64,000 bases of DNA from positions 1-64,000 of the IMG/VR virus record IMGVR_UViG_3300020159_002453; one strand, written 5' to 3'. Position numbers and translations under genes: made by a program. This DNA is from a virus. Of the stretch, positions 33,700-63,356 are shown in pieces. Position 1 is the stretch's first letter. Each line of letters starts with the position of its first letter. Below the pieces are notes generated by a model, which searched no databases, was not told the origin of the DNA, and saw nothing but the letters and a program-made list of their open reading frames with translations.

Positions 33700-34072
33700 T
33701 TGGTAATTCTAGGTTAAATTGCTCTATGTAATCATTTACCTCTCTCATCGAGAGTTCAAGTGTGTTAGCTACCTTTCTAACTGTGTCCTTTTGGGTAGTA
33801 TTCTTATCCGTATCTTTCTTCTTCTTAATGTAGTTCAACCGTTTAAACTTGCATGCAGGTATAACTCCATGCAAGTAATTAAACCACATCTCGTTATCTG
33901 CTAACGAAGGCCATACCCTATTACTTGTTTGGTTTAAGAGTGTAGCAACTTCAGGAGAGTACATCGAACACCAGCGCTGTATCATGTACGGCTGGAAATC
34001 TTGACTTTCTTTTATATTAACAGTATCAGGTCCTTTAGTTTTGTAAAGGACCTTATTGAGGTAATCAAACAT
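33659..34072 (-). CDS. Clamp loader small subunit, T4 gp62-like
   Basis: FDYLNKV, PYMIQRWCS, A..LN, YIKK, VA..LELS.RE..DY. Confidence 0.8.
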   Translation of the reverse strand: MFDYLNKVLYKTKGPDTVNIKESQDFQPYMIQRWCSMYSPEVATLLNQTSNRVWPSLADNEMWFNYLHGVIPACKFKRLNYIKKKKDTDKNTTQKDTVRKVANTLELSMREVNDYIEQFNLELPNEKLTKSQSTSSN

Positions 34073-34898
34073 TATAATAATTAGCCCTGTAACCTCGGTG
34101 TTGTTTAATAATCCCGCTTTTTTGTAATTTTTTTACGATAGTTCGCACCATAGTTTCTGTTATATTGTATTGTTCTGTAAAATATTCAATTAGTTGTTTA
34201 ATATTAATACTGGGGTTGTCTTGAAGGTAATTTGTAAAATCATTTTGAAACGAAAAATTAAGCGATACATATCTTCTATCGTTAATACCAAACCAGACAT
34301 GCTTAATACTGTTTGACTTAATTAGCATTTTTATTCTACTTCTATTTACAGACGCTGAAACATTTCTATTTAAAATGTGTGGTATATCTACCGCCTTAAA
34401 CCATTTATTAGTACTTAAATATTCTATAATTTTCTTTTTATCTTCATCAAAAATAGTTCGATAAAAAATATTACGACTTTGCTGTATTTTTTGCTTAGTG
34501 GTAATAGAATGTTCTACTAGTCCTTTCACGCCTTTATTGTGTGGCACCTTACCTTTAAGTTTTATACTTATTTTACGAATGGTGTCAGGGTGTAATTTAC
34601 CGTTCTTACCCCCATCTCTTATATTACAAAATTCCCTATTTACAGTAGCGTTAAAGTAAGTAATCCATTCTATTTCAGCGTTATTAAGGTCGTTAATATT
34701 ATTACACTTTTTTAAAATTATACGTTTCCAGTAACCTCTATACTTTTTAGAATAAAATTTACGTAAAAAAATAGTACCTGAACCAATGTACCCGTCTTCA
34801 ATAGATCCTATGTGCTGTCCAATATACTTTTTGTATTTAATTGCCTCAGGGTGTTTGTTTTCCCATAGATATATGAAACCATAATATTCGTCTGCCAT
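34065..34898 (-). CDS. GIY-YIG (Seg-like) homing endonuclease with NUMOD3-like motif
   Basis: GFIYLW...KYIGQH, YIGSG, NIRDGG, H.DT.RKIS..KG.VPHNKG; TATAAATA at 34904-34911. Confidence 0.88.
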   Translation of the reverse strand: MADEYYGFIYLWENKHPEAIKYKKYIGQHIGSIEDGYIGSGTIFLRKFYSKKYRGYWKRIILKKCNNINDLNNAEIEWITYFNATVNREFCNIRDGGKNGKLHPDTIRKISIKLKGKVPHNKGVKGLVEHSITTKQKIQQSRNIFYRTIFDEDKKKIIEYLSTNKWFKAVDIPHILNRNVSASVNRSRIKMLIKSNSIKHVWFGINDRRYVSLNFSFQNDFTNYLQDNPSINIKQLIEYFTEQYNITETMVRTIVKKLQKSGIIKQHRGYRANYYNV

Positions 34899-34937
34899 AT
34901 TAATATTTATAATATGGCAGACGGTATATTTATTAAT

Positions 34938-35519
34938 TTATAAAGATATTTTGCAGGTCGCAATAAAGATATTATCTACCATGCTATAAAACTGCTCATG
35001 TACTTCGGTCTGAAACTTAGCAGCTTGAGATGGGGTAAGATTAGTACTAAATGCAAAAGCAGGTGCATCTTTACCAGCAGTAATATTGATACCGGTATGT
35101 CCAATAGCGACATTATCCTTCGAGTAAGTAATACTCACTGAGGCTTTACCTTTTTGCTGCACAACACCACCTTGAGCATGCTCGGCATGAACCATAATGT
35201 CATCTCCCTTCATCTCAATAGGTTTGTTAATAATCTTTTGCAAGATGCCTGCAATAGAGGTATTAAATAGGCGTTGGAAGCAAACCGCTCCAAATGGATC
35301 AAGATTTGGAATCTCCCAGCAGAAGTTAATCATTGATTCACTATAAATGTAGTCTTTCTCGATAGAATCTTCTAAGTCGATAAGGTTAAGAGTAACCTCA
35401 ACTGGAGCTACAAAAGATACGATATTACCAATAGGTAAAGTCCGGTCTCGGAAGTACTTATAAGCAAAGCGTTTGTGAATAAAAGCCCCGTCGTATGTTT
35501 TTTGATCGTTAATAATCAT
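34938..35519 (-). CDS. DUF366-like protein (biotin/lipoate ligase-like fold)
   Basis: YDG..I...FAY, IVSF, DLED...IYS..M..F..E.P, QRL, GDDI, K.SVSI, HTGINI. Confidence 0.75.
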   Translation of the reverse strand: MIINDQKTYDGAFIHKRFAYKYFRDRTLPIGNIVSFVAPVEVTLNLIDLEDSIEKDYIYSESMINFCWEIPNLDPFGAVCFQRLFNTSIAGILQKIINKPIEMKGDDIMVHAEHAQGGVVQQKGKASVSITYSKDNVAIGHTGINITAGKDAPAFAFSTNLTPSQAAKFQTEVHEQFYSMVDNIFIATCKISL

Positions 35520-35540
35520 ATGTGTATAATAATGTAAAAA

Positions 35541-36221
35541 TTAATATTCTCCACGGTTGTATTTGTTAATAAACCAGTGTTGACCATCTTCCCATTCTTG
35601 GGTAAAGTTTTTAAGTCCAGGGGAACTATGAATCACATCGATACTAGTAGTACCTAGCTTTAATTTAGCTTTGTTGCAAGCTAGACTAAAATCAATGTCA
35701 TAAAAATGAGCAATACAAGGATTGGTCTCGTCAAAAGTAACACCTGCATCTAAAATAGTCTTAATCTTAAATGCTAAAAACAAACCATCTAGTAAGAGTA
35801 CTCTACCAGGTTTACCGAAGTGGGTCTTGTATGTGCTTCTATTAGCGGTATCAACATGAGTAACAGCGCCACTATGAGATTCCCGGTTGCACATTAAGTG
35901 CCACAAACAGGGTTGACGAATAGTTACATCTCTACCACCAGCAAGACCGACTACATCGTAAGACTCTAATGCTTTAACTAATTTAGAAGTCCAATTTCTA
36001 TCTGTAATAACTATATCATCGTGAGCGAGTACAAGTATACCGTCTTCTTTAGAAAGACGCATTATGGTTTCATTATACCGCTTAGGTAAAGGGGTACTAT
36101 TACCATAATAAGGAACAATAGTGTGATTTTTAATACCAACACTATTAAGTATGTTGTACTCACCCTTACTATGTTCAAGATCGTATTGACCGGAATGCTG
36201 GGAGCAAAACGAAACAAACAT
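35541..36221 (-). CDS. GT2-like (GT-A) glycosyltransferase
   Basis: RYN, LAHDD, VVGLAG, LLDGLFLA, FDE, HFYDIDFSL. Confidence 0.8.
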   Translation of the reverse strand: MFVSFCSQHSGQYDLEHSKGEYNILNSVGIKNHTIVPYYGNSTPLPKRYNETIMRLSKEDGILVLAHDDIVITDRNWTSKLVKALESYDVVGLAGGRDVTIRQPCLWHLMCNRESHSGAVTHVDTANRSTYKTHFGKPGRVLLLDGLFLAFKIKTILDAGVTFDETNPCIAHFYDIDFSLACNKAKLKLGTTSIDVIHSSPGLKNFTQEWEDGQHWFINKYNRGEY

Positions 36222-36222
36222 A

Positions 36223-36486
36223 TTAATCAGTAATTACACTATTACGAGGAAGATTAGGAAAAAGCTCTTTAGTGGCTTCAGCCATTTTGGGGTTATCAAA
36301 AACCCCGCCTTCAAATAAATATATATTATATAGTTTTGAATCTTCACTATTTAAGCGTTTAGCAAGATCAATCATTAATTGATTCTGTTTATCGGTCCAT
36401 TCAGCGCAAATATCTGTAACACTAGAAAACAATAAAGCTTCAACTAGTAGTTGCTTTTCTTCAGACGTAAATTGTATACCCTTCAT
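36223..36486 (-). CDS. Hypothetical protein
   Basis: Operon context. Confidence 0.6.
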   Translation of the reverse strand: MKGIQFTSEEKQLLVEALLFSSVTDICAEWTDKQNQLMIDLAKRLNSEDSKLYNIYLFEGGVFDNPKMAEATKELFPNLPRNSVITD

Positions 36487-36525
36487 ATTTGTGAAGAGTA
36501 TAAGATTTATTTTTAATAAATCTAC

Positions 36526-36858
36526 TTAATTTTTAGTATAATGTATAAAGATAGAGGTAAGACTGGTAATAAAAGCAACAATTATAGCTGATCTATACTG
36601 CCAAGGCATATCTTCTTTATTACTATGTTGTGCTTTGCAAGCTGCAACTTTAGCATGTAAGCTGTCTAGTTCTTGAGTCAAAGTATGTTCTATATTTTCA
36701 ACTTTACCACTTATACTAGCAACCTGTTGTATTAAACTTGGTTGTCCATTACCATCCCGTACCAGTTTACTTAATATGTGTAACTCGTTTTTTACGTTAA
36801 CTATATCCCGATTGATATAATCTATAGCAGAATTTCTATCGGTTGCTGTTTTTGCCAT
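36526..36858 (-). CDS. Coiled-coil protein with one C-terminal TM helix (holin/haemolysin-like)
   Basis: GNGQPSL..V, heptads, terminal AIIVAFITSLTSIFI; TAAGTA at 36865-36870. Confidence 0.45.
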   Translation of the reverse strand: MAKTATDRNSAIDYINRDIVNVKNELHILSKLVRDGNGQPSLIQQVASISGKVENIEHTLTQELDSLHAKVAACKAQHSNKEDMPWQYRSAIIVAFITSLTSIFIHYTKN

Positions 36859-36867
36859 ACCTCATAC

Positions 36868-37521
36868 TTACAATATAAAGTATGGGGATTTGGACTCTAT
36901 TTTTACTGGTAAATCTACTAGCTTGCCATCAGATAAAGTATATACAGTATTTTCCTCTAATAATTTACTACCTTCAAACTCAGTAGAAGAAAAGTCCCCG
37001 GTATCGGTGTTAGCATACAAAGTACACGAGTTACGAGCCAAGTATATTGTGTTGTATACTTCGTCATAAGCCCAAATTGCGAAAGTACCTTCAATTTTAC
37101 TTAAACCTGCAGTTAAACCAAACTTATGTATTAATCGAGGTATAATACAGCTATCAGTAGCCCCGGTAAAATCTTCTTCAAGAAAGTGTTCTTTAGCAAG
37201 TTTTTCAAAATTACTCACAATACCGTTATGAGCTACAATCCAATTTTTATACTGAAACGGGTGATTGTGGGCAGGATTAAATTGTTTTGTTTCTACAGTC
37301 GGTCCCCGAGAATGATATAGAGTATACTGTATAGGGGTTGAATACTCAGGAAACTCCGGCTCATGGTGATTAAATGTACCAAGTGTTTTACTTACCTCTA
37401 TGTAGTTTTGACCCCAACCCCCTACGGTCATTAATCCAGTACTATAACTACCTCGAACCAAATTACTTTGATATAATTTAAACGCTCTCTTAGAATTAGT
37501 AGATCCCGCTATGCCGCACAT
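36868..37521 (-). CDS. Class II (Ntn) glutamine amidotransferase, stand-alone
   Basis: N-terminal MCGIAG, HSR.PT, HPF, AHNGIV, TDS, LARN; directly after queC. Confidence 0.9.
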   Translation of the reverse strand: MCGIAGSTNSKRAFKLYQSNLVRGSYSTGLMTVGGWGQNYIEVSKTLGTFNHHEPEFPEYSTPIQYTLYHSRGPTVETKQFNPAHNHPFQYKNWIVAHNGIVSNFEKLAKEHFLEEDFTGATDSCIIPRLIHKFGLTAGLSKIEGTFAIWAYDEVYNTIYLARNSCTLYANTDTGDFSSTEFEGSKLLEENTVYTLSDGKLVDLPVKIESKSPYFIL

Positions 37522-37524
37522 ATA

Positions 37525-38244
37525 TTAAAGGTATGTAAGTTCTTTGCAGTTATACTTTGACCACGGTATATCTTTGGAGTATCCAATAGGATCAATAGTC
37601 TTATTGTCGATAAAGGCTTTAATACGAGCTGAACACGATACACACTCTCCGCATGCTGGATCGGTACCTTCATAACAGGTGTGAGTTTGTCTAAAGTCTA
37701 CTTGTAGATCAATGCCTTTCTTGACGACAAGGTCTTTAGAATAAGACATAAACGGTGCATTAACCTTAATCGTATTCTTACGATTTAAGTTGTACACATC
37801 GTTAACCTTATTCAGAAAAAGAGACGTACAATCCCAATAACCGGAGAAGTCATCAGTTTGTACAGCACCGTAGTGTAGATCGCTTGCGCCAATGCTTTCA
37901 GCCCATCCAGCTGCGGTCGTAAGTAATAATAGATTTCTAAAGGGTACATAGCTTAAAGGTTGTGCGTTGCCGATATCATCCCGGGCTTTTGGAATAGCAA
38001 GGTTGGTGTTAGTTAGTGCAGACATTGTAGAGATGTCTCTAAAGAAATCCATATTAACAATCTTATGTTCTTTCACTTTGCATACTTTAGCTTGGTACTT
38101 AGCGCATTCAATCTCCCGTACAATGCGTTGACCATAATTAAAGGTAATAGCGTAAATCTCATCGTAATTGAGTTCTTTTGCTACATAATGAAGTAATATA
38201 GAGCTATCCATACCGCCTGATAGGATTACGAGTGCTTTTGACAT
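37525..38244 (-). CDS. queC: 7-cyano-7-deazaguanine synthase
   Basis: SGGMDS, FNYGQR, VPFRN, SGYWDC, CYEG...CGECVSC. Confidence 0.95.
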   Translation of the reverse strand: MSKALVILSGGMDSSILLHYVAKELNYDEIYAITFNYGQRIVREIECAKYQAKVCKVKEHKIVNMDFFRDISTMSALTNTNLAIPKARDDIGNAQPLSYVPFRNLLLLTTAAGWAESIGASDLHYGAVQTDDFSGYWDCTSLFLNKVNDVYNLNRKNTIKVNAPFMSYSKDLVVKKGIDLQVDFRQTHTCYEGTDPACGECVSCSARIKAFIDNKTIDPIGYSKDIPWSKYNCKELTYL

Positions 38245-40658: not shown

Positions 40659-41114
40659 ATGTGTGCTTCTAAAAATAACAAGTATCTTCAAGGTCTTTAT
40701 AACCCTGTTAATAAAGACAAATACAAAGGAAATACTAACCCTTCGTATCGCTCGTCTTTAGAAAGAAAGTTCTTTTATTTTTTTGATAATAATCCTAATG
40801 TGATTGCGTGGGCGAGTGAATCAATAGTGGTACCGTATTATAACAGCGTTGACAACAAGGTACATAGATATTATGTCGATTTAATAGCAGCCATTAAAGG
40901 AGACAATGGAGAGATACAAAAGTATCTTATTGAATTAAAGCCGCACAGTCAAACACAGCCCCCAATACAGTCCAATAAAAAGAAATCGAGTACAGTTCTT
41001 TATGAGAACTTAATGTACCATCAAAATCAGTGCAAATGGAAAGCCGCAACTGAATATGCGGCTAAACAAGGAATGAAGTTTGTAGTGTTAACTGAAAAGT
41101 ATTTAAACTCTTAG
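40659..41114 (+). CDS. Head completion nuclease, T4 gp4-like
   Basis: QG.Y.P.N..KYKG, YRSSLE, WASE, HRYYVD, IELKP, KW.AA, LTE. Confidence 0.93.
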   Translation: MCASKNNKYLQGLYNPVNKDKYKGNTNPSYRSSLERKFFYFFDNNPNVIAWASESIVVPYYNSVDNKVHRYYVDLIAAIKGDNGEIQKYLIELKPHSQTQPPIQSNKKKSSTVLYENLMYHQNQCKWKAATEYAAKQGMKFVVLTEKYLNS

Positions 41115-42754: not shown

Positions 42755-43564
42755 TTAAACCTTAAGTGCTCGATCCCAAACTTGTAAATGCATTCTATTA
42801 GAGAATTTAAGGTTATACTTCTTACAGATATCAGCTACAGCAGGACCAATCTTAATAAGTTCATCTCTAGAGCCGCACATTGGCATAATCCAGATTAGCT
42901 CTTCTGGAAGATTAATCTCTGGGTTGTTTACAAACTTTTCATACATTTCATCTAGATCTGATTCCTGTTTAGCAACAAACTTAAAGCATGCTTTGTGCTT
43001 GATAAGGTAACGAATAACTTCTGGTTTAAAACGCTTGTCTTCCGGGTCACCGTTAACAGAAAGCTTAGGAGAAGTGGTATAGGTTACTTCGCAGCCAGTT
43101 GTCAGCCAACCTGGGTCAGGTAAAATAGTACCATTAGTTTCAAAGTCTATATTTAAAGTTGGTCCGAGCGGTTTATCGACAGAAGTGTCAAGTGCCTTGC
43201 TATAATCAACAAAGCCCCAGCGGTCTCTAATAAAGTGCACAAACTCCAAGAGGTTTTTTTGCTGAATAAAGGGCTCTCCGCCGGTAAGCTTGAGAAGGGC
43301 ACCCTCCTTAAGACGACTATGATAATCGTTCTTTTCAAAGTATTGGGCAATCTCTTCGAATGTCATTTTGTTCTTCTTAGACCAAGAAACGTAGCTATCA
43401 CAGCCAAACGGTGCGTCTGGGCTCTTGAATCCAATACAAGTAAGATTGCACATTGACAATCTCATAAACACCGATGGATAACCAATATATTTACCTTCGC
43501 CCTCTAGGGTATAAAATACAAAGTCGTCACTTAAAAAAAGGGTCTTATTTGAATCAATAGTCAT
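42755..43564 (-). CDS. queE: 7-carboxy-7-deazaguanine synthase (radical SAM)
   Basis: FYTLEGEG..IG.PSVFMRL..CNLTC...CDS, TGGEP, ETNG, SPKL, RMH. Confidence 0.92.
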   Translation of the reverse strand: MTIDSNKTLFLSDDFVFYTLEGEGKYIGYPSVFMRLSMCNLTCIGFKSPDAPFGCDSYVSWSKKNKMTFEEIAQYFEKNDYHSRLKEGALLKLTGGEPFIQQKNLLEFVHFIRDRWGFVDYSKALDTSVDKPLGPTLNIDFETNGTILPDPGWLTTGCEVTYTTSPKLSVNGDPEDKRFKPEVIRYLIKHKACFKFVAKQESDLDEMYEKFVNNPEINLPEELIWIMPMCGSRDELIKIGPAVADICKKYNLKFSNRMHLQVWDRALKV

Positions 43565-43618: not shown

Positions 43619-44065
43619 TTAAATCCTTTCATAAATTGCACTATTTCCTTCGTGTTCCCACACTTCTACCCTCTGTACCCAGCAACGGCCTTGAGTGATA
43701 TCGTTGATGTACTCATCTGCTGTACTAAAACAATAGTTTGCAAAGCGCTCAATACCTACTCCTTCAGGCATTACCACAAGTTCAATCATCTTACGCTTTT
43801 CAAGTTCCTTAAACATATCAAGATCCGGATCAACACCTGATACTACAGTCTTATGGTCGAACGTCTCTTCAAGGATAGTCTTAAGACCTTTAAGTGCACC
43901 AAAGTCGACTACCCAACTGTTGTTATCAAGTACATTACAAGTAAACCAAAACTTAGCTTGTAAACGGTAGCCGTGAATAAACCGGCAATGACTTTCAGCA
44001 AATGGCTGTCTAAATGCACAAGAACCAAGCGGAATAACTTTAGTGGAAACGTATCTATTGCTCAT
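43619..44065 (-). CDS. queD: 6-carboxytetrahydropterin synthase (phage-type)
   Basis: HC..IHGY, VVDFG, FDHK, VEVWE; adjacent to queE. Confidence 0.85.
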   Translation of the reverse strand: MSNRYVSTKVIPLGSCAFRQPFAESHCRFIHGYRLQAKFWFTCNVLDNNSWVVDFGALKGLKTILEETFDHKTVVSGVDPDLDMFKELEKRKMIELVVMPEGVGIERFANYCFSTADEYINDITQGRCWVQRVEVWEHEGNSAIYERI

Positions 44066-46037: not shown

Positions 46038-46498
46038 CAAATAGGGAAGGTGAGTTTGATTTGATATTTGTCTAGAAAAGCTTTTACTTTTCGAGCCGTA
46101 AACTTGCTAAAGTCGAAATTAAAGCGGTATTCTTTTATCAAAAGGGTCAGCTCATCACAACACCCACTGGTTTGCTCTAGACAATTAAAATCAAGGGTGT
46201 TTGTATAAACTATTACTGGAAACGTTTTGCGTATTTTTTCGAGTACTTTTAAAAACCGGAAACCTATAGAGGTGTTTGAATTAATATAAAATACAACGTT
46301 TTTACGGTTATCACTATCTTTAAAACAATTAATAAGACGACTCAAAGTATGATACAAGTATAATTTGTCAGCATCTTTGTCTTTAATCTCAAAACCGTAT
46401 ATTTCAACTAAATCGTGAGTGTAGCTTTTTTCAACATCAGCTGCGAACGTTTCAACATCCACCACCGTCAGTCCAAGTGCTATTTTCTGTACTCTCAT
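46037..46498 (-). CDS. Hypothetical protein
   Basis: ORF overlapping the upstream gene end; weak resemblance to an RNase H/PIN N-terminus only. Confidence 0.5.
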   Translation of the reverse strand: MRVQKIALGLTVVDVETFAADVEKSYTHDLVEIYGFEIKDKDADKLYLYHTLSRLINCFKDSDNRKNVVFYINSNTSIGFRFLKVLEKIRKTFPVIVYTNTLDFNCLEQTSGCCDELTLLIKEYRFNFDFSKFTARKVKAFLDKYQIKLTFPI

Positions 46499-46952
46499 TA
46501 TTTTTTATTATAGCTTGTAACTTAGATTGTTCAAATAGTTTCTTTAACAAAGCATCTGGCGCTCTACCGATTCGGCAATTAATAATACCGTTATAAAATC
46601 CGTCTTTTAAGAGTACATCGTTATCGAACTGTTTTTTAGCTTCATAATAAGCGAGCTCAAACTTACTTTCGCAAAGCCACACTATTTCAAACGTAAACTT
46701 GTCTTTACCTATAGCCTGGATATCGGCATTTAACTCATTGGAAGAGGACATATAAGTCTTCCAATCGGTTTCAATGTCAAAATGGCGTTTATTCTTTTTA
46801 CCTTTTAAAGGTTTAAGCTTTTTAACAGACTTCATCTGCTTTTTGCCAATATACTGTTTACCAGACACAGTATTAGTAATAACGTATATAAAACCGTAAG
46901 GTAAATTATTTTCGTCTATTGTAAGCTTAGTTATCCAATGACCTAAATCCAT
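46452..46952 (-). CDS. GIY-YIG endonuclease-family protein
   Basis: YGFIYVITN...KQYIGKK, DWKTY.SS, FEI, YYE, FYNG.I. Confidence 0.85.
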   Translation of the reverse strand: MDLGHWITKLTIDENNLPYGFIYVITNTVSGKQYIGKKQMKSVKKLKPLKGKKNKRHFDIETDWKTYMSSSNELNADIQAIGKDKFTFEIVWLCESKFELAYYEAKKQFDNDVLLKDGFYNGIINCRIGRAPDALLKKLFEQSKLQAIIKNNESTENSTWTDGGGC

Positions 46953-49565: not shown

Positions 49566-50604
49566 CTCAGAAGTCGGTATTTTTTCCGATCCACACTACG
49601 GTGTACATCGCAATAGTCCGATGTGGCACAAAATTGCTCTGGACCACGCTAAGTGGGCAGCTGAGCAATTTAATCTTAAAGGTATCAAAGACATTATTAT
49701 ACCTGGAGATATTTTTCACGACCGTAATGATATCGCGGTTAATACACTCCATATTGTTACCGATATTTTTGATATTCTTAAAAACTTCAACATTATTATT
49801 ACTGTCGGTAATCACGATGCTTTTTACCGGGACAATTCTACCGTCAATTCTGTTTCTATTTTGCGTGGCTGGTCTAATATTACTGTTGTTGATACTCTCA
49901 CTATACTGGAAACCCACGGTAAAAAAATAGCTTTATGCCCTTGGGGGCAAGATATTAACGAGGTACCCTCGTGTGATCTTATTGTGGGTCATTTTGAAAT
50001 TAATAGTTTTAAAATGAACTCGTATAAGGTATGTACGAATGGTCTTAAATCTACTGACCTTACCAGTCGTGCTAAGTTAACTATTTCCGGTCACTTCCAT
50101 CATAAAGAAGAACGCAAATACAAAGATGGTACTATTATGTATGTAGGTTGCCCATACCAGCAAGATTGGGGCGACTATGAAACAACTAAAGGTCTTTATA
50201 TCTTAGATTTAGACACCTTAAAATATGAATTCATTGAAAATAACATATCCCCGCAATACAACAAGATTAGATATTCTGAAATTGCGAACGGTACACTTAA
50301 TGCTGAAAAGTTAAAGAAAATTATACCAGGTAATATTATTAAGCTTTACATTGATAAAAAGCTTGAGCCGGATGCAGTAGATGTACTTGTAAGAAAGCTT
50401 GTGTCAGTTAAACCTGTAGAGTTTACTATTGAGTATGATTTTGTAGATACTGTTAACGTAGATAATGAAGCCGCTAATAAAAAAGACTTCACAGTAAGCG
50501 TAGAAACTTCAATTAATGAATTTATTGATTTATTGGATATTAAGCATAAAGATAAGGTGAAAGAGTATGTTATTGAGTTATATAATAAATCTAATAAAAC
50601 ATGA
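49552..50604 (+). CDS. Recombination nuclease, T4 gp47 / Mre11-like
   Basis: SDPHYG, GDIFHDR, GNHD, GHFE, SGHFH, YVGCPYQ. Confidence 0.95.
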   Translation: MKIFNSEVGIFSDPHYGVHRNSPMWHKIALDHAKWAAEQFNLKGIKDIIIPGDIFHDRNDIAVNTLHIVTDIFDILKNFNIIITVGNHDAFYRDNSTVNSVSILRGWSNITVVDTLTILETHGKKIALCPWGQDINEVPSCDLIVGHFEINSFKMNSYKVCTNGLKSTDLTSRAKLTISGHFHHKEERKYKDGTIMYVGCPYQQDWGDYETTKGLYILDLDTLKYEFIENNISPQYNKIRYSEIANGTLNAEKLKKIIPGNIIKLYIDKKLEPDAVDVLVRKLVSVKPVEFTIEYDFVDTVNVDNEAANKKDFTVSVETSINEFIDLLDIKHKDKVKEYVIELYNKSNKT

Positions 50605-51434
50605 AAATAGGAGTAGCAATTATTGCCTGCGATAGATTGGAATACACCAAAAAGTGTGTTGAAAGTGTTATTGCAAATAAAGGACCAGTCACTGACATAA
50701 TATTAGTCAATGACGGGGTTAAAATACCTGAGGGGGTATTGCCTACTGAAGTAATGGTAATGGAGAATCGCCCCCCTTACCAGTCAGTCGGGGTTGCTAA
50801 GAACAACGCTCTAAGAACTCTTTCAAATTGGAATTGTGACCATATGTTTTTAATTGAAAACGATATTATGGTTAAATCCTCTAATGTGTGGCAGAAGTAT
50901 ATTGATACTGCTAATGCTACCGGTATTACTCATTTAAATTTCGGTTATCACGGGCCTGCTAATCGCACCCCCGACTATACTAAACCTAACCCGCGAACAA
51001 TTGTAGAATACCCTGTAACTGTAAAAACCGCTTTTCAGACAATTGAATCAGTGAAGGTAGCACTGAACATGCATAGTGTTGGTGCTTTTTCTTATTATAG
51101 TCCTTTGTTTGTTAAGACTGTTGGCTTACACGATGAATACTTTAAGAATGCCTGGGAACATGTTGAATTATGTCAAAGAGCTGTTAAGCTTGGAATGCTA
51201 CCGGCATTTTGGTGGTTTCCAGATGTAGAAGGTAGCGATAGCCTGTTACAAGAAGTAGAAGGCTCGATTAAAAACAGTTCTATTACACATACTGAAAAAT
51301 GGATTAACAATATGAGAAAAGGGGCCGCTCATTATAAGAAGCTACATGGTTGGGAACCTATTCACACTCCAGATACCCCACCTAAAGAAGTATTCGATAG
51401 ACTAAAGACGATTTACAGCAAATACAAAAAGTGA
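50601..51434 (+). CDS. GT2 glycosyltransferase
   Basis: GVAII.CDR, VNDG, VGVAKN, FLIEND, VG..DE.F.NAWEH. Confidence 0.85.
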   Translation: MKIGVAIIACDRLEYTKKCVESVIANKGPVTDIILVNDGVKIPEGVLPTEVMVMENRPPYQSVGVAKNNALRTLSNWNCDHMFLIENDIMVKSSNVWQKYIDTANATGITHLNFGYHGPANRTPDYTKPNPRTIVEYPVTVKTAFQTIESVKVALNMHSVGAFSYYSPLFVKTVGLHDEYFKNAWEHVELCQRAVKLGMLPAFWWFPDVEGSDSLLQEVEGSIKNSSITHTEKWINNMRKGAAHYKKLHGWEPIHTPDTPPKEVFDRLKTIYSKYKK

Positions 51435-52246
51435 AAAACCTATATTTAAAAGATAGTTCTTTCGGTCACTGCATTTATAGTAACAACCCTACCCCGGCTG
51501 TAACATTTAGTAAGCATATAAATTGGGTTAGAGATGGTAAAGGTAAACTTGAAGATACTGTATATACTGATATGCACTTACAGGAGTGTGAAGGAGGTAT
51601 CGGTTGGTTGCTTGAACCTCAAGGCATTTACCCACAAGCATATCAATATGTAATGCAGAATGCACATAAGTTTAAAGAGATCTGGACTCATGATGCATCA
51701 ATGCTGTATTTGCCTAATGCTAAGTTAGTGCCTATTGGCGGGTGTTGGATAGAGAAACAAGATTACGGGATACATAAAAAGAGTAAAATGTTTTCTATAA
51801 TTGCTTCATGGAAGCGAGCTTTGCCTGGCCATAAGTTAAGACACACTATTATTAGTCTAGCGGGTAAACATATTGATGCTTACGGGCCTGAGTATATACA
51901 ATTTAAAAAGCACTCAATGAACAAGATTGAAGGTCTAAAAGACTATAGATATCATTTTGTTATTGAGAACTGCAAGAGAGACTTTTATTTTAGCGAAAAG
52001 CTAATTGATAGTCTTATGACTGGTACAATGCCTATATACTGGGGCTGTCCATCTATTGGAAAATACTTTAATACTGACGGTTTTATTATATTTGATACAC
52101 TTGAGGAGTTGAAAGAAAAGCTTAAGCTTTGTACCCCGGAGTATTATGACAGCAAAAAAGAAGCTATTATAGACAACTTCCAGAGAGCACAGAATTATTT
52201 GCTAGCTGAGGATTGGATGGTAGAGAACGGAGTTATTAAACTCTAG
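51431..52246 (+). CDS. GT10-like (alpha-1,3/4-fucosyltransferase-type) glycosyltransferase
   Basis: YRYHFVIEN...YFSEKLID....TMPIYWG motif. Confidence 0.8.
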   Translation: MKNLYLKDSSFGHCIYSNNPTPAVTFSKHINWVRDGKGKLEDTVYTDMHLQECEGGIGWLLEPQGIYPQAYQYVMQNAHKFKEIWTHDASMLYLPNAKLVPIGGCWIEKQDYGIHKKSKMFSIIASWKRALPGHKLRHTIISLAGKHIDAYGPEYIQFKKHSMNKIEGLKDYRYHFVIENCKRDFYFSEKLIDSLMTGTMPIYWGCPSIGKYFNTDGFIIFDTLEELKEKLKLCTPEYYDSKKEAIIDNFQRAQNYLLAEDWMVENGVIKL

Positions 52247-53045
52247 TCCAGCTTTCTGGTATTAAGTCAGCCGTGCTCCAATCTTTATACATTGGACCAA
52301 ACCAATTTTTCGGCGCAATTACTACCTTTTCAGGATTAGTGTTAAACCAAGCTGACCACCAGCTAAAGGTACTGTTTGCTATAATGTTGTTTTTACAGCT
52401 ACTCATTGCATGCATATCAGCAAACGGGTTTTTACTGTTTGAGTACTTAACTTTTTTGTTAACACCAAATGCTTCTTTGCACCATGCAATATCATCTGAA
52501 AACACTAAATAATTTTTACTTGGTACTAACTTAGTAGCATTAAAATAGTATTCCGGAGTCATTAGGGGGTGCCAAGCTTGCTTTTTTACATAATCTCCAC
52601 GTCTTACATGTATAGAGGTAGTCTCTTCTGGATCAATACCAGCTTCAATAAAAATCTCATCCGACAAAGCTACAATAGTTTCTTTAAACTGTAAATGCTC
52701 AAGTATGTACTCTCTATTATGGTTAAAGTACTTTTCACTTTGAAAATAACCAGTTAAATCAGTGTTATCCGATATGTTAAACACATCTTTAGTAAAATGA
52801 AATGCGGGGTCCTGGTATTGATTAGTAACACCATCTGACTCTTCTTTAGTAATGTAAGGAGCCTTTACGTTAAATCCCTGGGACAAGTTGAAATTCATAG
52901 CCTGACAGTAGTTATCATAATGTGTCGGGTTATTAGGGATTTTAACAGTATATCCGTTGTCTTTACCTACGGACAATAGAGTGGAGTACTGAAATAGAGC
53001 ATTACCCACATTACCATTACGACCTAGCAGTTTATATGTAATCAT
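52236..53045 (-). CDS. GT11 (alpha-1,2-fucosyltransferase-type) glycosyltransferase
   Basis: GNVGNALFQY, GYFQSEKYF, SIHVRRGDY, FSDD..WC, IIANSTFSWW, IAPK.WF. Confidence 0.9.
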   Translation of the reverse strand: MITYKLLGRNGNVGNALFQYSTLLSVGKDNGYTVKIPNNPTHYDNYCQAMNFNLSQGFNVKAPYITKEESDGVTNQYQDPAFHFTKDVFNISDNTDLTGYFQSEKYFNHNREYILEHLQFKETIVALSDEIFIEAGIDPEETTSIHVRRGDYVKKQAWHPLMTPEYYFNATKLVPSKNYLVFSDDIAWCKEAFGVNKKVKYSNSKNPFADMHAMSSCKNNIIANSTFSWWSAWFNTNPEKVVIAPKNWFGPMYKDWSTADLIPESWTRV

Positions 53046-53791
53046 TTCCAGTTCCAGCCTTCGACCTCTTTAAGCAGCTGCTCGTTAGATAGTTCTCCTA
53101 TACGATGTAACTCTAAGCGATTGGATTCTAAATGAGGATTGTGATTGTAAGAAGCCTCAAGTCTTACATGATTTAAATGGTAAAGGGGTCCACTAATACG
53201 CGCGAATTCACATCCAAGCTTTTTAAAACGGAAGAATATTTCGTTATCTTCATACCCTAAACCTTTAAAGTTTTCATTAGCCCCTCCACATTTCCAGAAA
53301 GTATTTGTGTCAAAGAATACTGCACCCCCCACTGATCCAGTATGAAAGCAGGTACACTCATTAAGATCTACCATTCCTGTGTTTTTTGCTTTTTTAATAA
53401 GACTATGATACTTTTTAGGTACATCATAAAAATGTCCATCAAACGGGTATACAACCGTAGCTTTACCACTCAAAATTACCTCTGTAGCTTTTTTAATTTG
53501 ATTTGGAGTTAATAAGATATCAGCATCATAGTGGGCTACAACCGGGGTATCAGCAGCTTTTGCAGCTAAGTTTACCCCGCGTTGTCTGTTAAAAAACTCA
53601 TTTGTCTCTTTAAAAATATACTTGCAATTATAACGATCTTTAAGTTTAGGGATAGTATCCTGTTCACATATTACAATATTGGTGTTTAAGTTGCTTTGGA
53701 GGAAATCCATAGTTATGTCCAAGTTGTTTAAACGATCCTGACTATCAACCTTTAAAGCTATCAAAATGGTTAGGTCTTTTAAATCTATCAT
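53042..53791 (-). CDS. GT7-like / GT2 galactosyltransferase-type enzyme
   Basis: R..NL, ICEQ, FNR..GVN, HYDAD, GGANE.F.GLGYED, LYHL.H; TAAGTA at 53801-53806. Confidence 0.8.
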   Translation of the reverse strand: MIDLKDLTILIALKVDSQDRLNNLDITMDFLQSNLNTNIVICEQDTIPKLKDRYNCKYIFKETNEFFNRQRGVNLAAKAADTPVVAHYDADILLTPNQIKKATEVILSGKATVVYPFDGHFYDVPKKYHSLIKKAKNTGMVDLNECTCFHTGSVGGAVFFDTNTFWKCGGANENFKGLGYEDNEIFFRFKKLGCEFARISGPLYHLNHVRLEASYNHNPHLESNRLELHRIGELSNEQLLKEVEGWNWK

Positions 53792-53864
53792 AATAAATTC
53801 TACTTACTTTGATTTTAATTTTTATCTCGTAGATTAAATTGGATACTCATATAGAATTACAATA

Positions 53865-60252: not shown

Positions 60253-61068
60253 ATGATTAAAATATCTCACGAATCACCTTTAAGCATGCTCGAAATGTCT
60301 CGTACGTATAATGATTATGATTATGCCCTCACACATTTGTTCGAGATTTACCCGCAGTATTATAAGTTTTTTCAAGATAGTCTTGAACAAGGTAGATGCG
60401 TATTATTAGATTGCTCAACATTTGAGCTTGGTACTGCTTTTGATTCGGAACGATACGCATATTGGATTAACAAACTTTTACCCACCGAATACATTATTCC
60501 AGATGTGCTAGAGGATTGTAATGGTACGATTAAATCTGCTATGGACTGGAATTTTAGACTAGATTGGAATAACGTACCTCACACACAGAGTAGAATGATT
60601 GGGGTAGTGCAGGGTAAAAATTACGGGGAGCTGGTTAAATGTTATACCCATATGGATCAAGTAATGAATGTAGATAAGCTCGCTATTTCATTTGACTACT
60701 CTTATTACCGAGAAGTGTTTCCTCATCCTAACAAGTGGGTATCGTTTATGATGGGCCGAGTGATGACTCTTACTCGCTTAATGAACGATGGTGTTATTAA
60801 TAAAGGTAAGCCTCACCATCTTCTTGGTTGCGCACACCCTAGAGAGTTCAGCTTTTATCAAGGACCAGAGTTTAGCTGGATTGACTCTTTGGATACCTCT
60901 TCACCTATAGTGCATGGTATCAAGAAGATCGCATACTCTGATAAGATCGGTATTTGGAATAAAGAGAGTACTAAACTGGTTGATCTACTTGATTCGGTAC
61001 CAGATGCTGCTCAAGAGAAATGTATTGCAGACAACCTTGCTGCTTTCCGTAGCTACGTGAATGGATGA
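60253..61068 (+). CDS. TGT-fold guanine transglycosylase-like protein (DpdA-like, probably DpdA3 type)
   Basis: LLDCS.FE, IPDV, GVVQG, HHLLG, SLDTSS match TGT barrel spacing of the two catalytic Asp; operon with queF. Confidence 0.65.
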   Translation: MIKISHESPLSMLEMSRTYNDYDYALTHLFEIYPQYYKFFQDSLEQGRCVLLDCSTFELGTAFDSERYAYWINKLLPTEYIIPDVLEDCNGTIKSAMDWNFRLDWNNVPHTQSRMIGVVQGKNYGELVKCYTHMDQVMNVDKLAISFDYSYYREVFPHPNKWVSFMMGRVMTLTRLMNDGVINKGKPHHLLGCAHPREFSFYQGPEFSWIDSLDTSSPIVHGIKKIAYSDKIGIWNKESTKLVDLLDSVPDAAQEKCIADNLAAFRSYVNG

Positions 61069-61300
61069 ATTAACTGATATTGAGGCTATTACACATAATG
61101 TGTCAATAGCTTACCCACACTTGCTTCGAGACGGGGTAACTGTAAAGGATTATTACTTTATTGATTGCCAGAAAAATGAAGTACTTCCAGTAACAGAATT
61201 TAAAGCTGTAAAGGATTACATAAAAAGTGCTGAGATCAAAGACTTTGCTATGGTAATTTCTTTTAGTAATAATATAATAGGTTACCGCTTAAATGTATGA
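61061..61300 (+). CDS. Hypothetical protein in deazaguanine operon
   Basis: Overlaps both neighbours in a translationally coupled manner. Confidence 0.6.
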   Translation: MDELTDIEAITHNVSIAYPHLLRDGVTVKDYYFIDCQKNEVLPVTEFKAVKDYIKSAEIKDFAMVISFSNNIIGYRLNV

Positions 61301-61887
61301 AAAGAAGAAGCACATGGGGAGTATTATTTTCGCAATCTGGTTCAGAGATTTTAGAAGTCTCTAAACATCTTAACTGTGTGCCTGATGTTATTGTAACTAA
61401 TAAGCCGGTTGAGGATATACATAAGATTAACCCAGAATTACTTGCAATAGCATTTGAAAAGTTTATCTTTTTACCTAAAAAACCCACTGTGGAAGAGTAT
61501 GTTACTGCTTTAAAGCATACTGGCTTTGTTACACTACACGGATTTTTAAGAGTGTTACCCCCGGAAATTTGTTTCCGGTACAATATTTATAATGGTCATC
61601 CTGGTTTAATAACTAAGTATCCGGAGTTAAAAGGTAAAGACCCTCAAGCTAAGGTGTGGGATTCTAATGTTAATTATAGATACCATGGGCATGTTATACA
61701 TAAAGTAGTTGCTGAAGTGGATGCCGGGGAAGTAACAGCATCAGCATACTTTATGAGTGAAGACATTAAAAAAGAGTTTGGTAGTTTAGATAACTACATT
61801 AAGCACTTACACCGGGTTTCAGTTAGAAATTGGGTAGCCTTTTTGAAGAAAAAAGATATACTCAACGCATCAATTTATGGACAATAA
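61297..61887 (+). CDS. PurN-like formyltransferase (DpdN-like)
   Basis: VLFSQSGS, LHGFLRVL, NGHPGL, G.VIH.V..EVDAG. Confidence 0.82.
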   Translation: MKRRSTWGVLFSQSGSEILEVSKHLNCVPDVIVTNKPVEDIHKINPELLAIAFEKFIFLPKKPTVEEYVTALKHTGFVTLHGFLRVLPPEICFRYNIYNGHPGLITKYPELKGKDPQAKVWDSNVNYRYHGHVIHKVVAEVDAGEVTASAYFMSEDIKKEFGSLDNYIKHLHRVSVRNWVAFLKKKDILNASIYGQ

Positions 61888-62449
61888 CTATAAAGTAGTA
61901 ATTTGTGGAGCACATTCACAAGGAAAAACTACTCTGGTAAATAAGCTAAAAGAAAATGTCGAGCTTACGCACGACTTTAAGTTTTCTTTTAGGACCAATC
62001 TTACTAGAGACTTAAGCAAACTATTGCCTATTAACGAAGCAGGAGATTCTGTTTCGCAGTATTTAATTATGGCTCGCCATCTAGAATTTGCTTTGACTCC
62101 AGGGCGTTGGATTATGGATCGGGGTGCCTTGGATGGAGCTGCTTATAGCCGCTACTTCTATGATGAGAATAAAGTGAGTAAGAACATTATGGATGCAATT
62201 GATGAGGTATATGAACAGTGTGTACCTTATTACAATAAAGTGTTTTACATCGCACCTGAGCTACCTCTAGTAGAAGATGGAGAACGTAGTGTAAATAAAG
62301 AATTCTTTGATGGGGTTGTAAAGCAATTTGATTTTTACACGAGACATTTTAGTGTTAGTAATAAAGTAGTATTTTTAACTGGTTCTGTATCAGAACGTGC
62401 AAATACTGTGATTAACGCAATTAGAACCGATTTCAACAATGAGCTATAA
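61877..62449 (+). CDS. P-loop nucleotide kinase-like protein
   Basis: GAHSQGKTT, MDRGALD, EDGERS; between formyltransferase and queF. Confidence 0.75.
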   Translation: MDNNYKVVICGAHSQGKTTLVNKLKENVELTHDFKFSFRTNLTRDLSKLLPINEAGDSVSQYLIMARHLEFALTPGRWIMDRGALDGAAYSRYFYDENKVSKNIMDAIDEVYEQCVPYYNKVFYIAPELPLVEDGERSVNKEFFDGVVKQFDFYTRHFSVSNKVVFLTGSVSERANTVINAIRTDFNNEL

Positions 62450-63356
62450 TACAAATAATATCGATAAAGTACTCGGACAGAGAGTTGATTCTCCGTCTAC
62501 GTATTCCCCTGACATCCTTGTACGTGAAGAACGTCAACGTAATCGCACGCATCTTGACTTGCAAAATGAATCCCTTCCTTTTGTCGGTTATGATATCTGG
62601 AACGGTTATGAATGTAGTGCAGTAACAGATGCCGGTCTACCAGTGTCTTTTGTTGCTAAAGTAGTTTATGCTGCTACTAACCCATACATTGTAGAGTCTA
62701 AGTCAATGAAGCTTTACTGGAACGGGTTTAACATGCAACCATCCGGTAAGACCCCTAAAGAAGTTCTTAAGAACGTTAAAGCTACTGCCGAAAAAGATCT
62801 TTCTGCATTGCTTGAGACGCCGGTTAAGGTAGAGTTTTACACTCAAAAATTAGAGGGGGATTACTTAAAAGAAAATGAGTGGTTTAATAGTTACGGTGGC
62901 TGGGACGTTCTTGAAGAAATTCCTGAAGCAAAGAAAATGAAATTTACTGTATTTAACGAGACCGCTGATTTGTTAAAGTTAGACGGAAAAGTTGATATAG
63001 GTTGGGTTGAGGAGCGCTATATGAGTACCCTTCTTCGTTCTAACTGCAAAATTACTAAGCAGCCAGACTCTGGGGATATTTTTATCTATTATAAAGGTTC
63101 TAAAGCAGTAACAGAGCGCTCTCTATTAGAGTGGATTGTCTCGTTCCGTAATGAATGTCACTTCCACGAGGAGATAGTTGAGTGTGCGTTCAAACGATTA
63201 TATGATTTAATAACCCCTGATGAGTTACTAGTAACAGCTTTTTATGCACGTCGTGGTGGTTGGGATATCGTACCCACACGTGCTACCCACAAGCATCTTT
63301 TAGATAAAAATCTTATTAACGCTAAAAAACCATACTTTAAGTTCCCTAGACAGTAA
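62439..63356 (+). CDS. queF: NADPH-dependent preQ0 reductase, bimodular type
   Basis: G.DIWNGYE.S, VESKSMKLYWNGF, LLRSNCKITKQPD, FHEE.VE, YARRGG.DI.P.R. Confidence 0.93.
   Translation: MSYNTNNIDKVLGQRVDSPSTYSPDILVREERQRNRTHLDLQNESLPFVGYDIWNGYECSAVTDAGLPVSFVAKVVYAATNPYIVESKSMKLYWNGFNMQPSGKTPKEVLKNVKATAEKDLSALLETPVKVEFYTQKLEGDYLKENEWFNSYGGWDVLEEIPEAKKMKFTVFNETADLLKLDGKVDIGWVEERYMSTLLRSNCKITKQPDSGDIFIYYKGSKAVTERSLLEWIVSFRNECHFHEEIVECAFKRLYDLITPDELLVTAFYARRGGWDIVPTRATHKHLLDKNLINAKKPYFKFPRQ

What the first reader, a model, noticed from the sequence alone, without database searches (positions are those of the whole stretch)
34938..38244. queC-amidotransferase...GT-DUF366 cluster: candidate undescribed deazaguanine hypermodification branch
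Seen: co-oriented queC, stand-alone Ntn amidotransferase, (late membrane gene), small ORF, GT-A glycosyltransferase and DUF366-like protein. Known: Gat-QueC fusions are linked to archaeosine (G+) whereas QueF makes preQ1, so having both is unexpected; DUF366 has a biotin/lipoate-ligase-like fold and unknown function. Inference: DUF366 could ligate an acyl group to the preQ1 amine and the GT could glycosylate the base, giving a base beyond known dPreQ1/fdPreQ1/dG+. Alternatively the amidotransferase just feeds ammonia to QueC.
Basis: partly seen in the sequence, partly recalled or inferred. Interest (0 to 1): 0.78.

Follow-up and report, generated by a model that had tools for sequence, protein, structure and literature searches.

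The report
Phage QueC, glutaminase, DUF366; bystander glycosyltransferase
The six genes are real, but they are the local part of a known kind of phage system that swaps guanine in DNA for a 7-deazaguanine (probably formyl-preQ1). The unstudied DUF366 protein looks like a helper of precursor (preQ0) synthesis also used by bacteria, and the sugar transferase persists in relatives that have no such system, so a new sugar- or acyl-bearing base is unlikely.

Summary
Observation confirmed. Minus-strand genes 38244-34938 encode QueC, a free class-II (Ntn) glutaminase, a tail-anchored 110-aa protein, an 87-aa protein, a GT-A glycosyltransferase (PF13712) and a DUF366 protein.

The contig is a T4-like phage fragment. 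It also carries QueD, QueE, FolE2 and a DpdA3-DpdN-Tmk-QueF block syntenic with Flavobacterium phage immuto (40-51% identity), whose DNA is fully fdPreQ1.

- **Glutaminase:** it accompanies QueC in 30 of 30 related loci and in Vibrio phages nt-1, phi-Grn1 and phi-ST2. The latter two contain dPreQ1/mdPreQ1 and no dG+. It most likely feeds ammonia to QueC.
- **DUF366:** it sits in queD-queC-DUF366-queE operons of bacterial MAGs that lack QueF, and in four further metagenome loci. In phages it appears and disappears with the deazaguanine genes. It therefore belongs to preQ0 synthesis, not to preQ1 decoration.
- **Glycosyltransferase:** collinear relatives with no que genes and no DUF366 keep it. 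It is a frequent neighbour, not a dependent part.

The hypermodification reading is therefore unlikely (about 5-10%). The DUF366-preQ0 link appears unpublished and is testable. This scan has already reported the same operon and the same DUF366 link on other genomes.

The parts
37525..38244 (-). QueC, 7-cyano-7-deazaguanine (preQ0) synthase
   Evidence: PF06508 3.1e-60 and TIGR00364 above its cut-off. The SGGMDS PP-loop and four C-terminal Cys are conserved.
36868..37521 (-). Free-standing class-II (Ntn) glutamine amidotransferase, the likely ammonia donor for QueC
   Evidence: GATase_6/7. N-terminal MCG, R-G, N-G and D are conserved. It is next to QueC in 30/30 related loci and in Vibrio phage nt-1.
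36526..36858 (-). orf110, a coiled-coil protein with a C-terminal membrane anchor; clade-specific, role unknown
   Evidence: Translation. No family hit. Not detected in more distant relatives.
36223..36486 (-). orf87, a small acidic protein; clade-specific, role unknown
   Evidence: Translation. No family hit.
35541..36221 (-). GT-A glycosyltransferase (PF13712); a resident of this locus that does not depend on the deazaguanine genes
   Evidence: Pfam 2e-10. HDD motif. Homologues are kept in collinear phages without que genes or DUF366.
34938..35519 (-). DUF366 protein with a ligase-like fold; inferred accessory of preQ0 synthesis
   Evidence: PF04017 1.9e-21. Profile hit to PDB 2DDZ at 4.5e-24. 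AF2 model and Foldseek. Sits in queD-queC-DUF366-queE operons in cells. Co-varies with que genes in phages.
42755..43564 (-). QueE-like radical SAM (CDG synthase)
   Evidence: Fer4_12 and QueE NCBIfam models below their cut-offs. 23-33% identical to the rSAM next to cellular DUF366.
43619..44065 (-). QueD (PTPS family)
   Evidence: PF01242 2.2e-16.
60253..61068 (+). DpdA3-type DNA guanine transglycosylase
   Evidence: 51% identical over its full length to the immuto DpdA. No PF01702 hit.
61297..61887 (+). DpdN-like formyltransferase
   Evidence: PF00551. 49% identical to the immuto DpdN; the only phage-record hits are the four immuto records.
62439..63356 (+). Bimodular QueF (preQ0 reductase)
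   Evidence: QueF_N + QueF. 40% identical to the immuto QueF.

Best explanation
The block is the preQ0-making corner of a scattered DpdA3-type 7-deazaguanine DNA-modification system of an uncultured T4-like phage. FolE2, QueD and QueE make CDG. QueC converts CDG to preQ0 with ammonia that the adjacent free Ntn glutaminase releases from glutamine, by analogy with asparagine synthetase B (inferred). QueF reduces preQ0 to preQ1, DpdA3 swaps it into DNA, and DpdN formylates it, so the expected base is fdPreQ1 as in phage immuto (inferred from orthology). DUF366 is a ligase-fold accessory of the QueC/QueE stage that archaea, some bacteria and these phages share. My best guess for its chemistry is that it binds or adenylates the carboxylate intermediate CDG, or couples QueE to QueC (inference, low confidence). 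The GT-A glycosyltransferase, orf110 and orf87 are not dependent parts of the system. The GT probably serves another target, such as another DNA base or a virion or host glycan.
For: Pathway genes. DpdA3 is 51%, DpdN 49% and QueF 40% identical to the immuto proteins, in the same DpdA-DpdN-Tmk-QueF order. Immuto DNA is 100% fdPreQ1 (PMC10516641).

Glutaminase: catalytic residues are kept. QueC is never seen without Gat in 30 loci from many lineages. The same QueC-then-Gat pair stands in nt-1, VH7D, phi-Grn1 and phi-ST2. phi-Grn1 and phi-ST2 have dPreQ1/mdPreQ1 and 0 dG+, and the VH7D QueF is functional.

DUF366 in cells: 37 of 401 genomes of one bacterial phylum have it. In all 30 sampled loci long enough to show a flank, it is next to a QueE-like rSAM, and in about two thirds it is next to QueC. 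QueD is adjacent in 4 of the 5 genomes tested, and QueF was not found in 5/5. Where QueC is not adjacent it is elsewhere in the genome, 5/5. Four further divergent metagenome loci all read QueC-DUF366 and/or DUF366-QueE.

DUF366 in phages: among GT-selected loci that contain the g137-gp31-g127 anchor, the counts are DUF366+/que+ 27, DUF366+/que- 2, DUF366-/que+ 1 and DUF366-/que- 8. Divergent DUF366 phages without an adjacent QueC still carry QueD, QueE, FolE or FolE2, DpdA3, DpdN and QueF in the same record. Phages with PolB-QueC-Gat-GT have DUF366 30-40 kb away in the 3 of 3 largest records. Within the clade DUF366 (78-89% identity) and QueC (78-96%) are far more constrained than Gat (45-65%) and GT (51-60%).

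GT: record G408 (87 kb) is collinear through AAA28, UvsY, UvsW, gp47, gp46, PolB, UvsX, gp32, primase and g137-gp31-g127. It holds the GT but no QueC, Gat, QueD, QueE, QueF, DpdA3, DpdN, FolE2 or DUF366. G417 reads primase-orf217-GT-g137-gp31, which is this window's order with QueC, Gat and DUF366 missing.
Against: There is no chemistry: the DNA base of this uncultured phage is unknown. All related phage records are fragments (4-46% complete), so absences are provisional. The GT does neighbour QueC-Gat or DpdA3 in 20 of 26 GT lineages, and at two different genome positions. That is more than a pure bystander would predict and could reflect a shared function in DNA modification. In many phage lineages DUF366 is anchored to g137-gp31 rather than to QueC. 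Phages nt-1 and immuto modify their DNA without DUF366. The bacterial DUF366 genomes are largely one related group, so the operon counts are not independent events. No DUF366 fusion protein was found.
Confidence: 0.68

Rival explanations
1. One reading: DUF366 ligates an acyl group onto the aminomethyl of (d)preQ1 and the GT glycosylates the base, giving an undescribed hypermodified 7-deazaguanine.
For: DUF366 has a biotin/lipoate-ligase-like fold, and such enzymes acylate amines. The GT lies between deazaguanine genes (QueC-Gat or DpdA3 on one side, DUF366 on the other) in many lineages. No paper on a glycosylated deazaguanine was found, so it would be new.
Against: Cellular DUF366 sits between queC and queE in genomes where QueF, and hence preQ1, was not found. 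The GT is kept by collinear phages that lack every que gene and DUF366. A DpdN orthologue already accounts for capping the preQ1 amine. DUF366 lacks the C-terminal domain of BPL/LplA, and no acyl-carrier or acyl-activating partner is nearby.
Confidence: 0.06
2. QueC plus the free glutaminase act as a split Gat-QueC and make the archaeosine base, so the DNA carries dG+ instead of, or alongside, a preQ1 derivative.
For: Fused Gat-QueC of phage 9g gives dG+ (PMC6884629). nt-1, which has the same QueC + Gat pair, contains traces of dG+.
Against: The gene order is QueC then Gat, the reverse of the fusion. The Gat did not hit the Gat-QueC PHROGs (phrog_1550, phrog_10428) that the QueC hit. phi-Grn1 and phi-ST2 have the same pair and 0 dG+. 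The dG+ of nt-1 is attributed to its ArcS. This phage also has QueF and DpdN, which need preQ0/preQ1.
Confidence: 0.1
3. In phages DUF366 has nothing to do with deazaguanine. It is a resident of the gp31 (co-chaperonin) neighbourhood with some other role, and its nearness to QueC here is positional chance.
For: In every phage lineage seen, DUF366 lies directly upstream of g137-gp31-g127, while its upstream neighbours vary: sugar epimerases, GTs, heme oxygenase.
Against: Relatives with the same anchor but no que genes lack DUF366 (8 loci; records G408 and G417). DUF366-bearing records hold que/dpdA genes wherever the coverage allows. Independent queC-DUF366-queE operons exist in cells.
Confidence: 0.08

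Closest known systems
[quoted passage not shown] 2023, PMC10516641)
   Same: The DpdA3-DpdN-Tmk-QueF block is in the same order at 40-51% identity. Both also have a GTP cyclohydrolase, QueD, QueE and QueC, scattered among replication genes.
   Different: Immuto has no free glutaminase, no DUF366 and no PF13712 GT near its QueC. Its QueC is only 24% identical and appears to lack the C-terminal Cys cluster in the pairwise alignment. It uses FolE type I and a family A polymerase, whereas this phage has FolE2 and a T4-like family B replisome.
Gat-QueC of Enterobacteria phage 9g and Crenarchaeota (G+ synthesis; PMC6884629)
   Same: A class-II glutaminase is paired with a QueC-type PP-loop enzyme.
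   Different: Here they are two separate genes in the opposite order, together with QueF and DpdN, and with no evidence for G+.
QueC + adjacent 'hypothetical protein' of Vibrio phages nt-1, VH7D, phi-Grn1 and phi-ST2
   Same: A stand-alone Ntn glutaminase lies immediately downstream of QueC and is followed, after small ORFs, by gp31. It is 26% identical and also starts MCG.
   Different: Those phages use DpdA2 with low modification levels, and have no DUF366 and no GT in the block. As far as I read the two papers, they do not discuss this glutaminase.
PH0223 of Pyrococcus horikoshii (PDB 2DDZ), Pfam DUF366; more distantly biotin- and lipoate-protein ligases
   Same: Same family (profile E 4.5e-24, TM 0.80). 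The catalytic-core fold is that of BPL/LplA (TM 0.5-0.6).
   Different: No function is known for PH0223. DUF366 is a single domain without the BPL/LplA C-terminal domain, and the ligase motifs were not demonstrated here.
T4 beta-glucosyltransferase (positional analogue only)
   Same: In que-less relatives the PF13712 GT lies next to uvsX within the PolB...primase replication block, as b-gt does in T4.
   Different: The family is unrelated: T4 b-gt is known from the literature to have a GT-B fold, while this protein is GT-A. No dCMP hydroxymethylase/ThyA homologue was found in the 80-kb record.

Membership tests
Pfam DUF366 (PF04017) | Full-length match above the curated cut-off | tested here: met
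   76.8 bits against a cut-off of 29.9, residues 2-191.
Pfam DUF366 (PF04017) | Homology and shared fold with the solved member PH0223 (2DDZ) | tested here: met
   Profile E 4.5e-24. AF2 model pLDDT 96, Foldseek TM 0.80.
QueC, preQ0 synthase (TIGR00364 equivalog) | Score above the equivalog cut-off; PP-loop SGGxDS; C-terminal Zn-binding Cys cluster | tested here: met
   174.9 bits against 150.3. SGGMDS and C190/C198/C201/C204 are invariant in the alignment.
Class-II (Ntn) glutamine amidotransferase | N-terminal nucleophile Cys, plus Arg-Gly, Asn-Gly oxyanion hole and Asp | tested here: met
   MCG start; R23-G24, N99-G100 and D123 are conserved across 10 sequences including nt-1. GATase_6 49.1 bits against 27.
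Gat-QueC fusion (G+ synthase) | Glutaminase domain fused N-terminally to QueC in one polypeptide | tested here: not met
   Two ORFs separated by a stop codon, in the order QueC then Gat. The Gat does not hit the fusion PHROGs.
Gat-QueC fusion (G+ synthase) | Product is G+ / dG+ | not testable with these tools
   Needs LC-MS/MS. The nearest characterised phages with the split pair show 0 dG+.
DpdA3-type 7-deazaguanine DNA modification (fdPreQ1 branch) | DpdA3 transglycosylase, DpdN formyltransferase, QueF and a full preQ0 pathway in one genome | tested here: met
DpdA3-type 7-deazaguanine DNA modification (fdPreQ1 branch) | fdPreQ1 replaces G in virion DNA | not testable with these tools
GT-A glycosyltransferase (PF13712) | Match above the cut-off and a DXD-type motif | tested here: met
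   41.2 bits against 27. An invariant HDD. Atlas neighbours are all viral PF13712 clusters.
Biotin/lipoate protein ligase (BPL/LplA) as an enzyme family | Adenylate-binding motifs with the catalytic Lys, and a C-terminal domain | tested here: inconclusive
   Only fold similarity was shown (TM 0.5-0.6, 13-18% identity). DUF366 has its own conserved set (E69, QR, GDD, K..SVS, H.G.N) and no C-terminal domain. No residue-level equivalence was established.

The most novel reading that the evidence does not exclude
DUF366 is an unrecognised fifth enzyme of preQ0 biosynthesis, shared by archaea, some bacteria and T4-like phages. It would be a small ligase-fold protein that activates the carboxylate of CDG with ATP (or hands QueE's product and ammonia to QueC). 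It would be needed by the QueC variants it travels with, and kept by phages to sustain full replacement of G.
Probability: 0.4. Interest if true: 0.72.

Novelty: new variant of a known kind. Interest (0 to 1): 0.5.

Why it matters
7-Deazaguanine DNA modifications are a major phage counter-defence, and preQ0 is the precursor of queuosine and archaeosine in tRNA. The pathway is treated as complete with four enzymes. A conserved, strongly constrained extra protein inside preQ0 operons, which appears and disappears with the system in phages, gives a domain of unknown function a pathway. It also gives a direct experiment: CDG, ADG, preQ0 and ATP binding, and the effect on QueC and QueE.

The obligate QueC + free glutaminase pair suggests that many phage QueCs are glutamine-dependent two-subunit enzymes. 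The published phage surveys I read annotate this gene only as hypothetical.

For annotation, this result warns against reading every glycosyltransferase next to que genes as evidence for a glycosylated deazaguanine.

Tried and rejected
- **Complex prediction** of QueC (alignment A3) with DUF366 (A1) returned 'no answer'. It is not used as evidence either way.
Contexts therefore came from the search for related loci, the genome search and the fetch from genomes.
- **Alignment-based scans of genome contigs** with A1 and A2 failed because no stretch was conserved enough.
- **A search for DUF366 fused to other domains** (376 aa or longer) found none, which is weak evidence.
- **PHROGs and NCBIfam** gave nothing for DUF366, the GT, orf110 or orf87.
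- **Single-sequence PDB searches** of DUF366 and the GT gave nothing.
- **GenBank phage searches:** tblastn of the GT found nothing. DUF366 hit only 'Microcystis phage MaAM05', in a bacterial-looking context.
- **Scan with P0134** gave one spurious locus.
- **Literature:** no paper holds 'DUF366', PF04017 or COG2029. The first DUF366 search only matched DUF3669.
- **DUF366 as a replacement for QueC or QueD** was considered and rejected. All DUF366 genomes tested have both, and so does the phage.
- **An N-terminal extension on bacterial QueC** was considered and rejected. It was an artefact of longest-ORF calling over the upstream queD.
Full report
**What is there**

The window is the first 64 kb of a 79.9-kb IMG/VR virus record, estimated 37% complete. 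It encodes a T4-like replication and recombination set: UvsY, UvsW, gp47/gp46, a family B polymerase, UvsX, gp41, gp32, RNase H and a gp31-like co-chaperonin.

The six ORFs of the finding are real and tightly packed on the minus strand:

| Gene | Coordinates | Evidence |
|---|---|---|
| QueC | 37525-38244 | PF06508; TIGR00364 above its cut-off |
| Free class-II glutaminase | 36868-37521 | starts MCG; catalytic R-G, N-G and D present |
| orf110 | 36526-36858 | tail-anchored coiled-coil protein |
| orf87 | 36223-36486 | no family hit |
| GT-A glycosyltransferase | 35541-36221 | PF13712, HDD motif |
| DUF366 | 34938-35519 | PF04017 |

Eighty close relatives in IMG/VR keep exactly this order. The only difference is a NUMOD3 homing-endonuclease gene (34065-34898), which is an insertion peculiar to this window.

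**The wider system**

QueE and QueD lie 5 kb upstream. FolE2 lies just beyond the window, at contig position 71480-72553. Downstream of the polymerase there is a DpdA3-DpdN-thymidylate kinase-QueF block. [quoted passage not shown]

Immuto DNA has all G replaced by fdPreQ1 (PMC10516641). The phage therefore has every gene of a known DpdA3-type pathway. By orthology the expected base is fdPreQ1. This is an inference, not a measurement.

**The glutaminase**

It is not.

- tblastn shows the same arrangement, QueC followed at once by a stand-alone Ntn glutaminase annotated 'hypothetical protein', in Vibrio phages nt-1, VH7D, ValKK3, phi-Grn1, phi-ST2 and others.
- Cui et al. measured dPreQ1 and mdPreQ1 and zero dG+ in phi-Grn1 and phi-ST2, and showed that the VH7D QueF is a working preQ0 reductase.
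- In 80 loci selected only for a relative of the GT, QueC was never seen without the Gat. Thirty loci had both, and ten more had Gat at a contig edge.
- The Gat does not hit the PHROG families of fused Gat-QueC that the QueC hits, and the gene order is the reverse of the fusion.

The simplest reading is a two-subunit, glutamine-dependent preQ0 synthase. This follows the logic of asparagine synthetase B, where an Ntn glutaminase is joined to a PP-loop synthetase (established knowledge).

**DUF366 in cells**

A full-library phmmer search found only about 200 clusters at 50% identity. One of these is a bacterial group whose titles read Actinomycetota, Candidatus Solincola and Candidatus Geothermincola.

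- In that phylum, 37 of 401 sampled genomes have DUF366.
- In every sampled locus the neighbour on one side is a QueE-like radical SAM protein, itself 23-33% identical to the phage QueE. In about two thirds the neighbour on the other side is QueC.
- QueD precedes QueC, or precedes DUF366 directly. The operon therefore reads queD-queC-DUF366-queE.
- Where QueC is not adjacent it is elsewhere in the genome, 5 of 5.
- QueF was not found in 5 of 5 DUF366 genomes.
- About 77 of the 401 genomes have a full QueC, and 34-35 of the 37 DUF366 genomes are among them.
- Four further, mutually divergent metagenome loci (35-46% identity) also read QueC-DUF366 and/or DUF366-QueE.

DUF366 therefore belongs with the synthesis of preQ0 in organisms that apparently make no preQ1. 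This argues against the proposed acylation of the preQ1 amine.

The tallies include 14 genomes flagged as unpublished: G052, G228, G393, G241, G320, G345, G338, G177, G151, G124, G022, G270, G086 and G092. None of them is DUF366-positive or has a full QueC match, and no specific claim rests on them.

**DUF366 in phages**

More distant DUF366 genes (41-59% identity) all sit directly upstream of the same three genes, g137, the gp31-like gene and g127. Their upstream neighbours vary: GDP-mannose dehydratase or epimerase genes, other GTs, a heme oxygenase. So adjacency to QueC is not general.

Genome-level co-occurrence does hold, however.

- The records of these loci carry QueD, QueE and FolE (G403); FolE2, QueD and QueE (G405); or DpdA3, DpdN, Tmk and QueF (G404).
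- Phages whose QueC-Gat-GT lies behind the polymerase have DUF366 30-40 kb away in the three largest records.
- Conversely, relatives that keep the g137-gp31-g127 anchor but have no que genes lack DUF366.
- Among anchor-bearing loci the counts are 27, 2, 1 and 8 for DUF366+/que+, DUF366+/que-, DUF366-/que+ and DUF366-/que-. Fisher p is 8e-6 by locus and 0.03 at the level of 70%-identity lineages. These loci are related, so the p values overstate independence.
- Within the clade DUF366 (78-89%) is as constrained as QueC (78-96%), while Gat (45-65%) and GT (51-60%) drift.

**The glycosyltransferase**

The PF13712 GT family is widespread in this phage group and occurs in several architectures:

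- QueC-Gat-GT-DUF366
- QueC-GT-Gat-DUF366
- DpdA3-like-GT-DUF366
- PolB-QueC-Gat-GT
- primase-orf217-GT-g137-gp31
- PolB-UvsX-GT-gp41/gp32-primase

The last two have no QueC, Gat or DUF366. None of eleven such records has a QueC.

Record G408 (87 kb) is collinear with this window across all the places where this phage keeps deazaguanine genes, yet it has none of them and no DUF366, while keeping the GT. G417 shows this window's local order with exactly QueC, Gat and DUF366 missing. The GT therefore does not depend on the deazaguanine system.

One caveat should be stated plainly. The GT neighbours QueC-Gat or DpdA3 in 20 of 26 GT lineages and at two genome positions. It may therefore share a theme, such as DNA modification, and regulation with them. 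In the que-less phages it sits beside uvsX, as b-gt does in T4. No hydroxymethylase was found in the available 80 kb. I put the chance that it decorates a deazaguanine at under 10%.

**How DUF366 might work**

The AF2 model is confident (pLDDT 96.3). It matches PH0223 (2DDZ) and then the catalytic cores of lipoate and biotin protein ligases. PH0223 self-associates.

The family has its own conserved polar set, E69, Q-R, G-D-D, K..S.S and H.G.N, and all of these are retained in the phage protein. Enzymes of this fold adenylate carboxylic acids, and the pathway intermediate between QueE and QueC, CDG, is a carboxylic acid.

My working model is that DUF366 binds or adenylates CDG, or bridges QueE, which releases ammonia, to QueC, which consumes it. 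This is inference only. Residue-level equivalence to the ligases was not shown.

**Comparison, novelty and verdict**

The system as a whole is a new member of the DpdA3/fdPreQ1 kind. Two features are variants that I did not find described: the obligate free glutaminase partner of QueC, and DUF366 as a preQ0-pathway protein. No paper holds DUF366, PF04017 or COG2029, and the two phage surveys do not discuss either feature.

The proposed new hypermodified base is unlikely. The same operon and the same DUF366-QueC link have already been reported many times by this scan on other genomes. I tested those leads independently here and they hold, except that I could not find the reported fusion.

Noticed in passing
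window 34065-34898 (-), TATAAATA at 34904-34911: A 277-aa NUMOD3/winged-helix homing-endonuclease-like gene is inserted between DUF366 and g137. It is absent from all 80 close relatives and is preceded by a T4 late-promoter-like TATAAATA.
   Followed up: partly
window 50601-56862: A glycosylation island sits among gp47/gp46: GT2-like, GT10 and GT11 fucosyltransferase-like, GT7C/GT2 and GT1_4 genes. Relatives place homologues, together with GDP-mannose 4,6-dehydratase, an epimerase, WcbI and GT8-like genes, directly upstream of DUF366 (L132:592-9959). This suggests phage-encoded fucose-type glycans with an unknown target.
   Followed up: partly
window 40659-41114 (+); 46452-46952 (-); 59460-60221 (-); L002:358-1065 (-): Several mobile-endonuclease-type genes are present: a TnsA-like N-terminal endonuclease on the opposite strand between primase and orf233 (conserved in relatives), a SegE-like GIY-YIG and two LEM-3-like GIY-YIG genes.
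   Followed up: no
L001:6001-6609 (Vibrio phage nt-1 VPFG_00173): This gene is annotated 'hypothetical protein' but is a class-II glutaminase (MCG start) directly after QueC. The same is true in VH7D, ValKK3, phi-Grn1 and phi-ST2. It is not treated in the two deazaguanine surveys I read.
   Followed up: partly
L003:3557-4438 (immuto QueC): The immuto 'QueC' is only 24% identical to this phage's QueC, and the pairwise alignment shows no counterpart of the C-terminal Cys cluster. The two phages share DpdA3/DpdN/QueF but not the QueC type.
   Followed up: no
L004 (GenBank MW495066.1 'Microcystis phage MaAM05') 1-16540: The only GenBank 'phage' with a DUF366 homologue has it among secF, glyS, mtgA, fabI and fliM genes. 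The record looks like bacterial sequence or a mis-assigned bin.
   Followed up: no
L159, L161, L162, L165-L167, L172, L173, L175, L183: One phage lineage has a distant DpdA3-like gene (24-30% identity) directly upstream of GT-DUF366, sometimes with ThyX. It is a different local combination of deazaguanine genes around the same GT.
   Followed up: no
L128:1157-1789, L130:830-1462: A heme-oxygenase-like gene lies immediately upstream of DUF366 in one phage lineage (cyanophage-style auxiliary gene).
   Followed up: no
L088:5756-6787 and 9465-10079, and the same positions in L086-L121: In the bacterial MAGs the queD-queC-DUF366-queE operon is regularly flanked by a 2-hydroxyglutaryl-CoA dehydratase D-component-like gene and a DUF3786 gene. 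The relevance is unknown.
   Followed up: no
table (bacterial phylum sample): QueCs of DUF366-bearing genomes score lower against TIGR00364 (median 147 bits, many below the 150.3 cut-off) than QueCs of DUF366-less genomes (median 178). This fits a distinct QueC subtype but is confounded by relatedness.
   Followed up: partly
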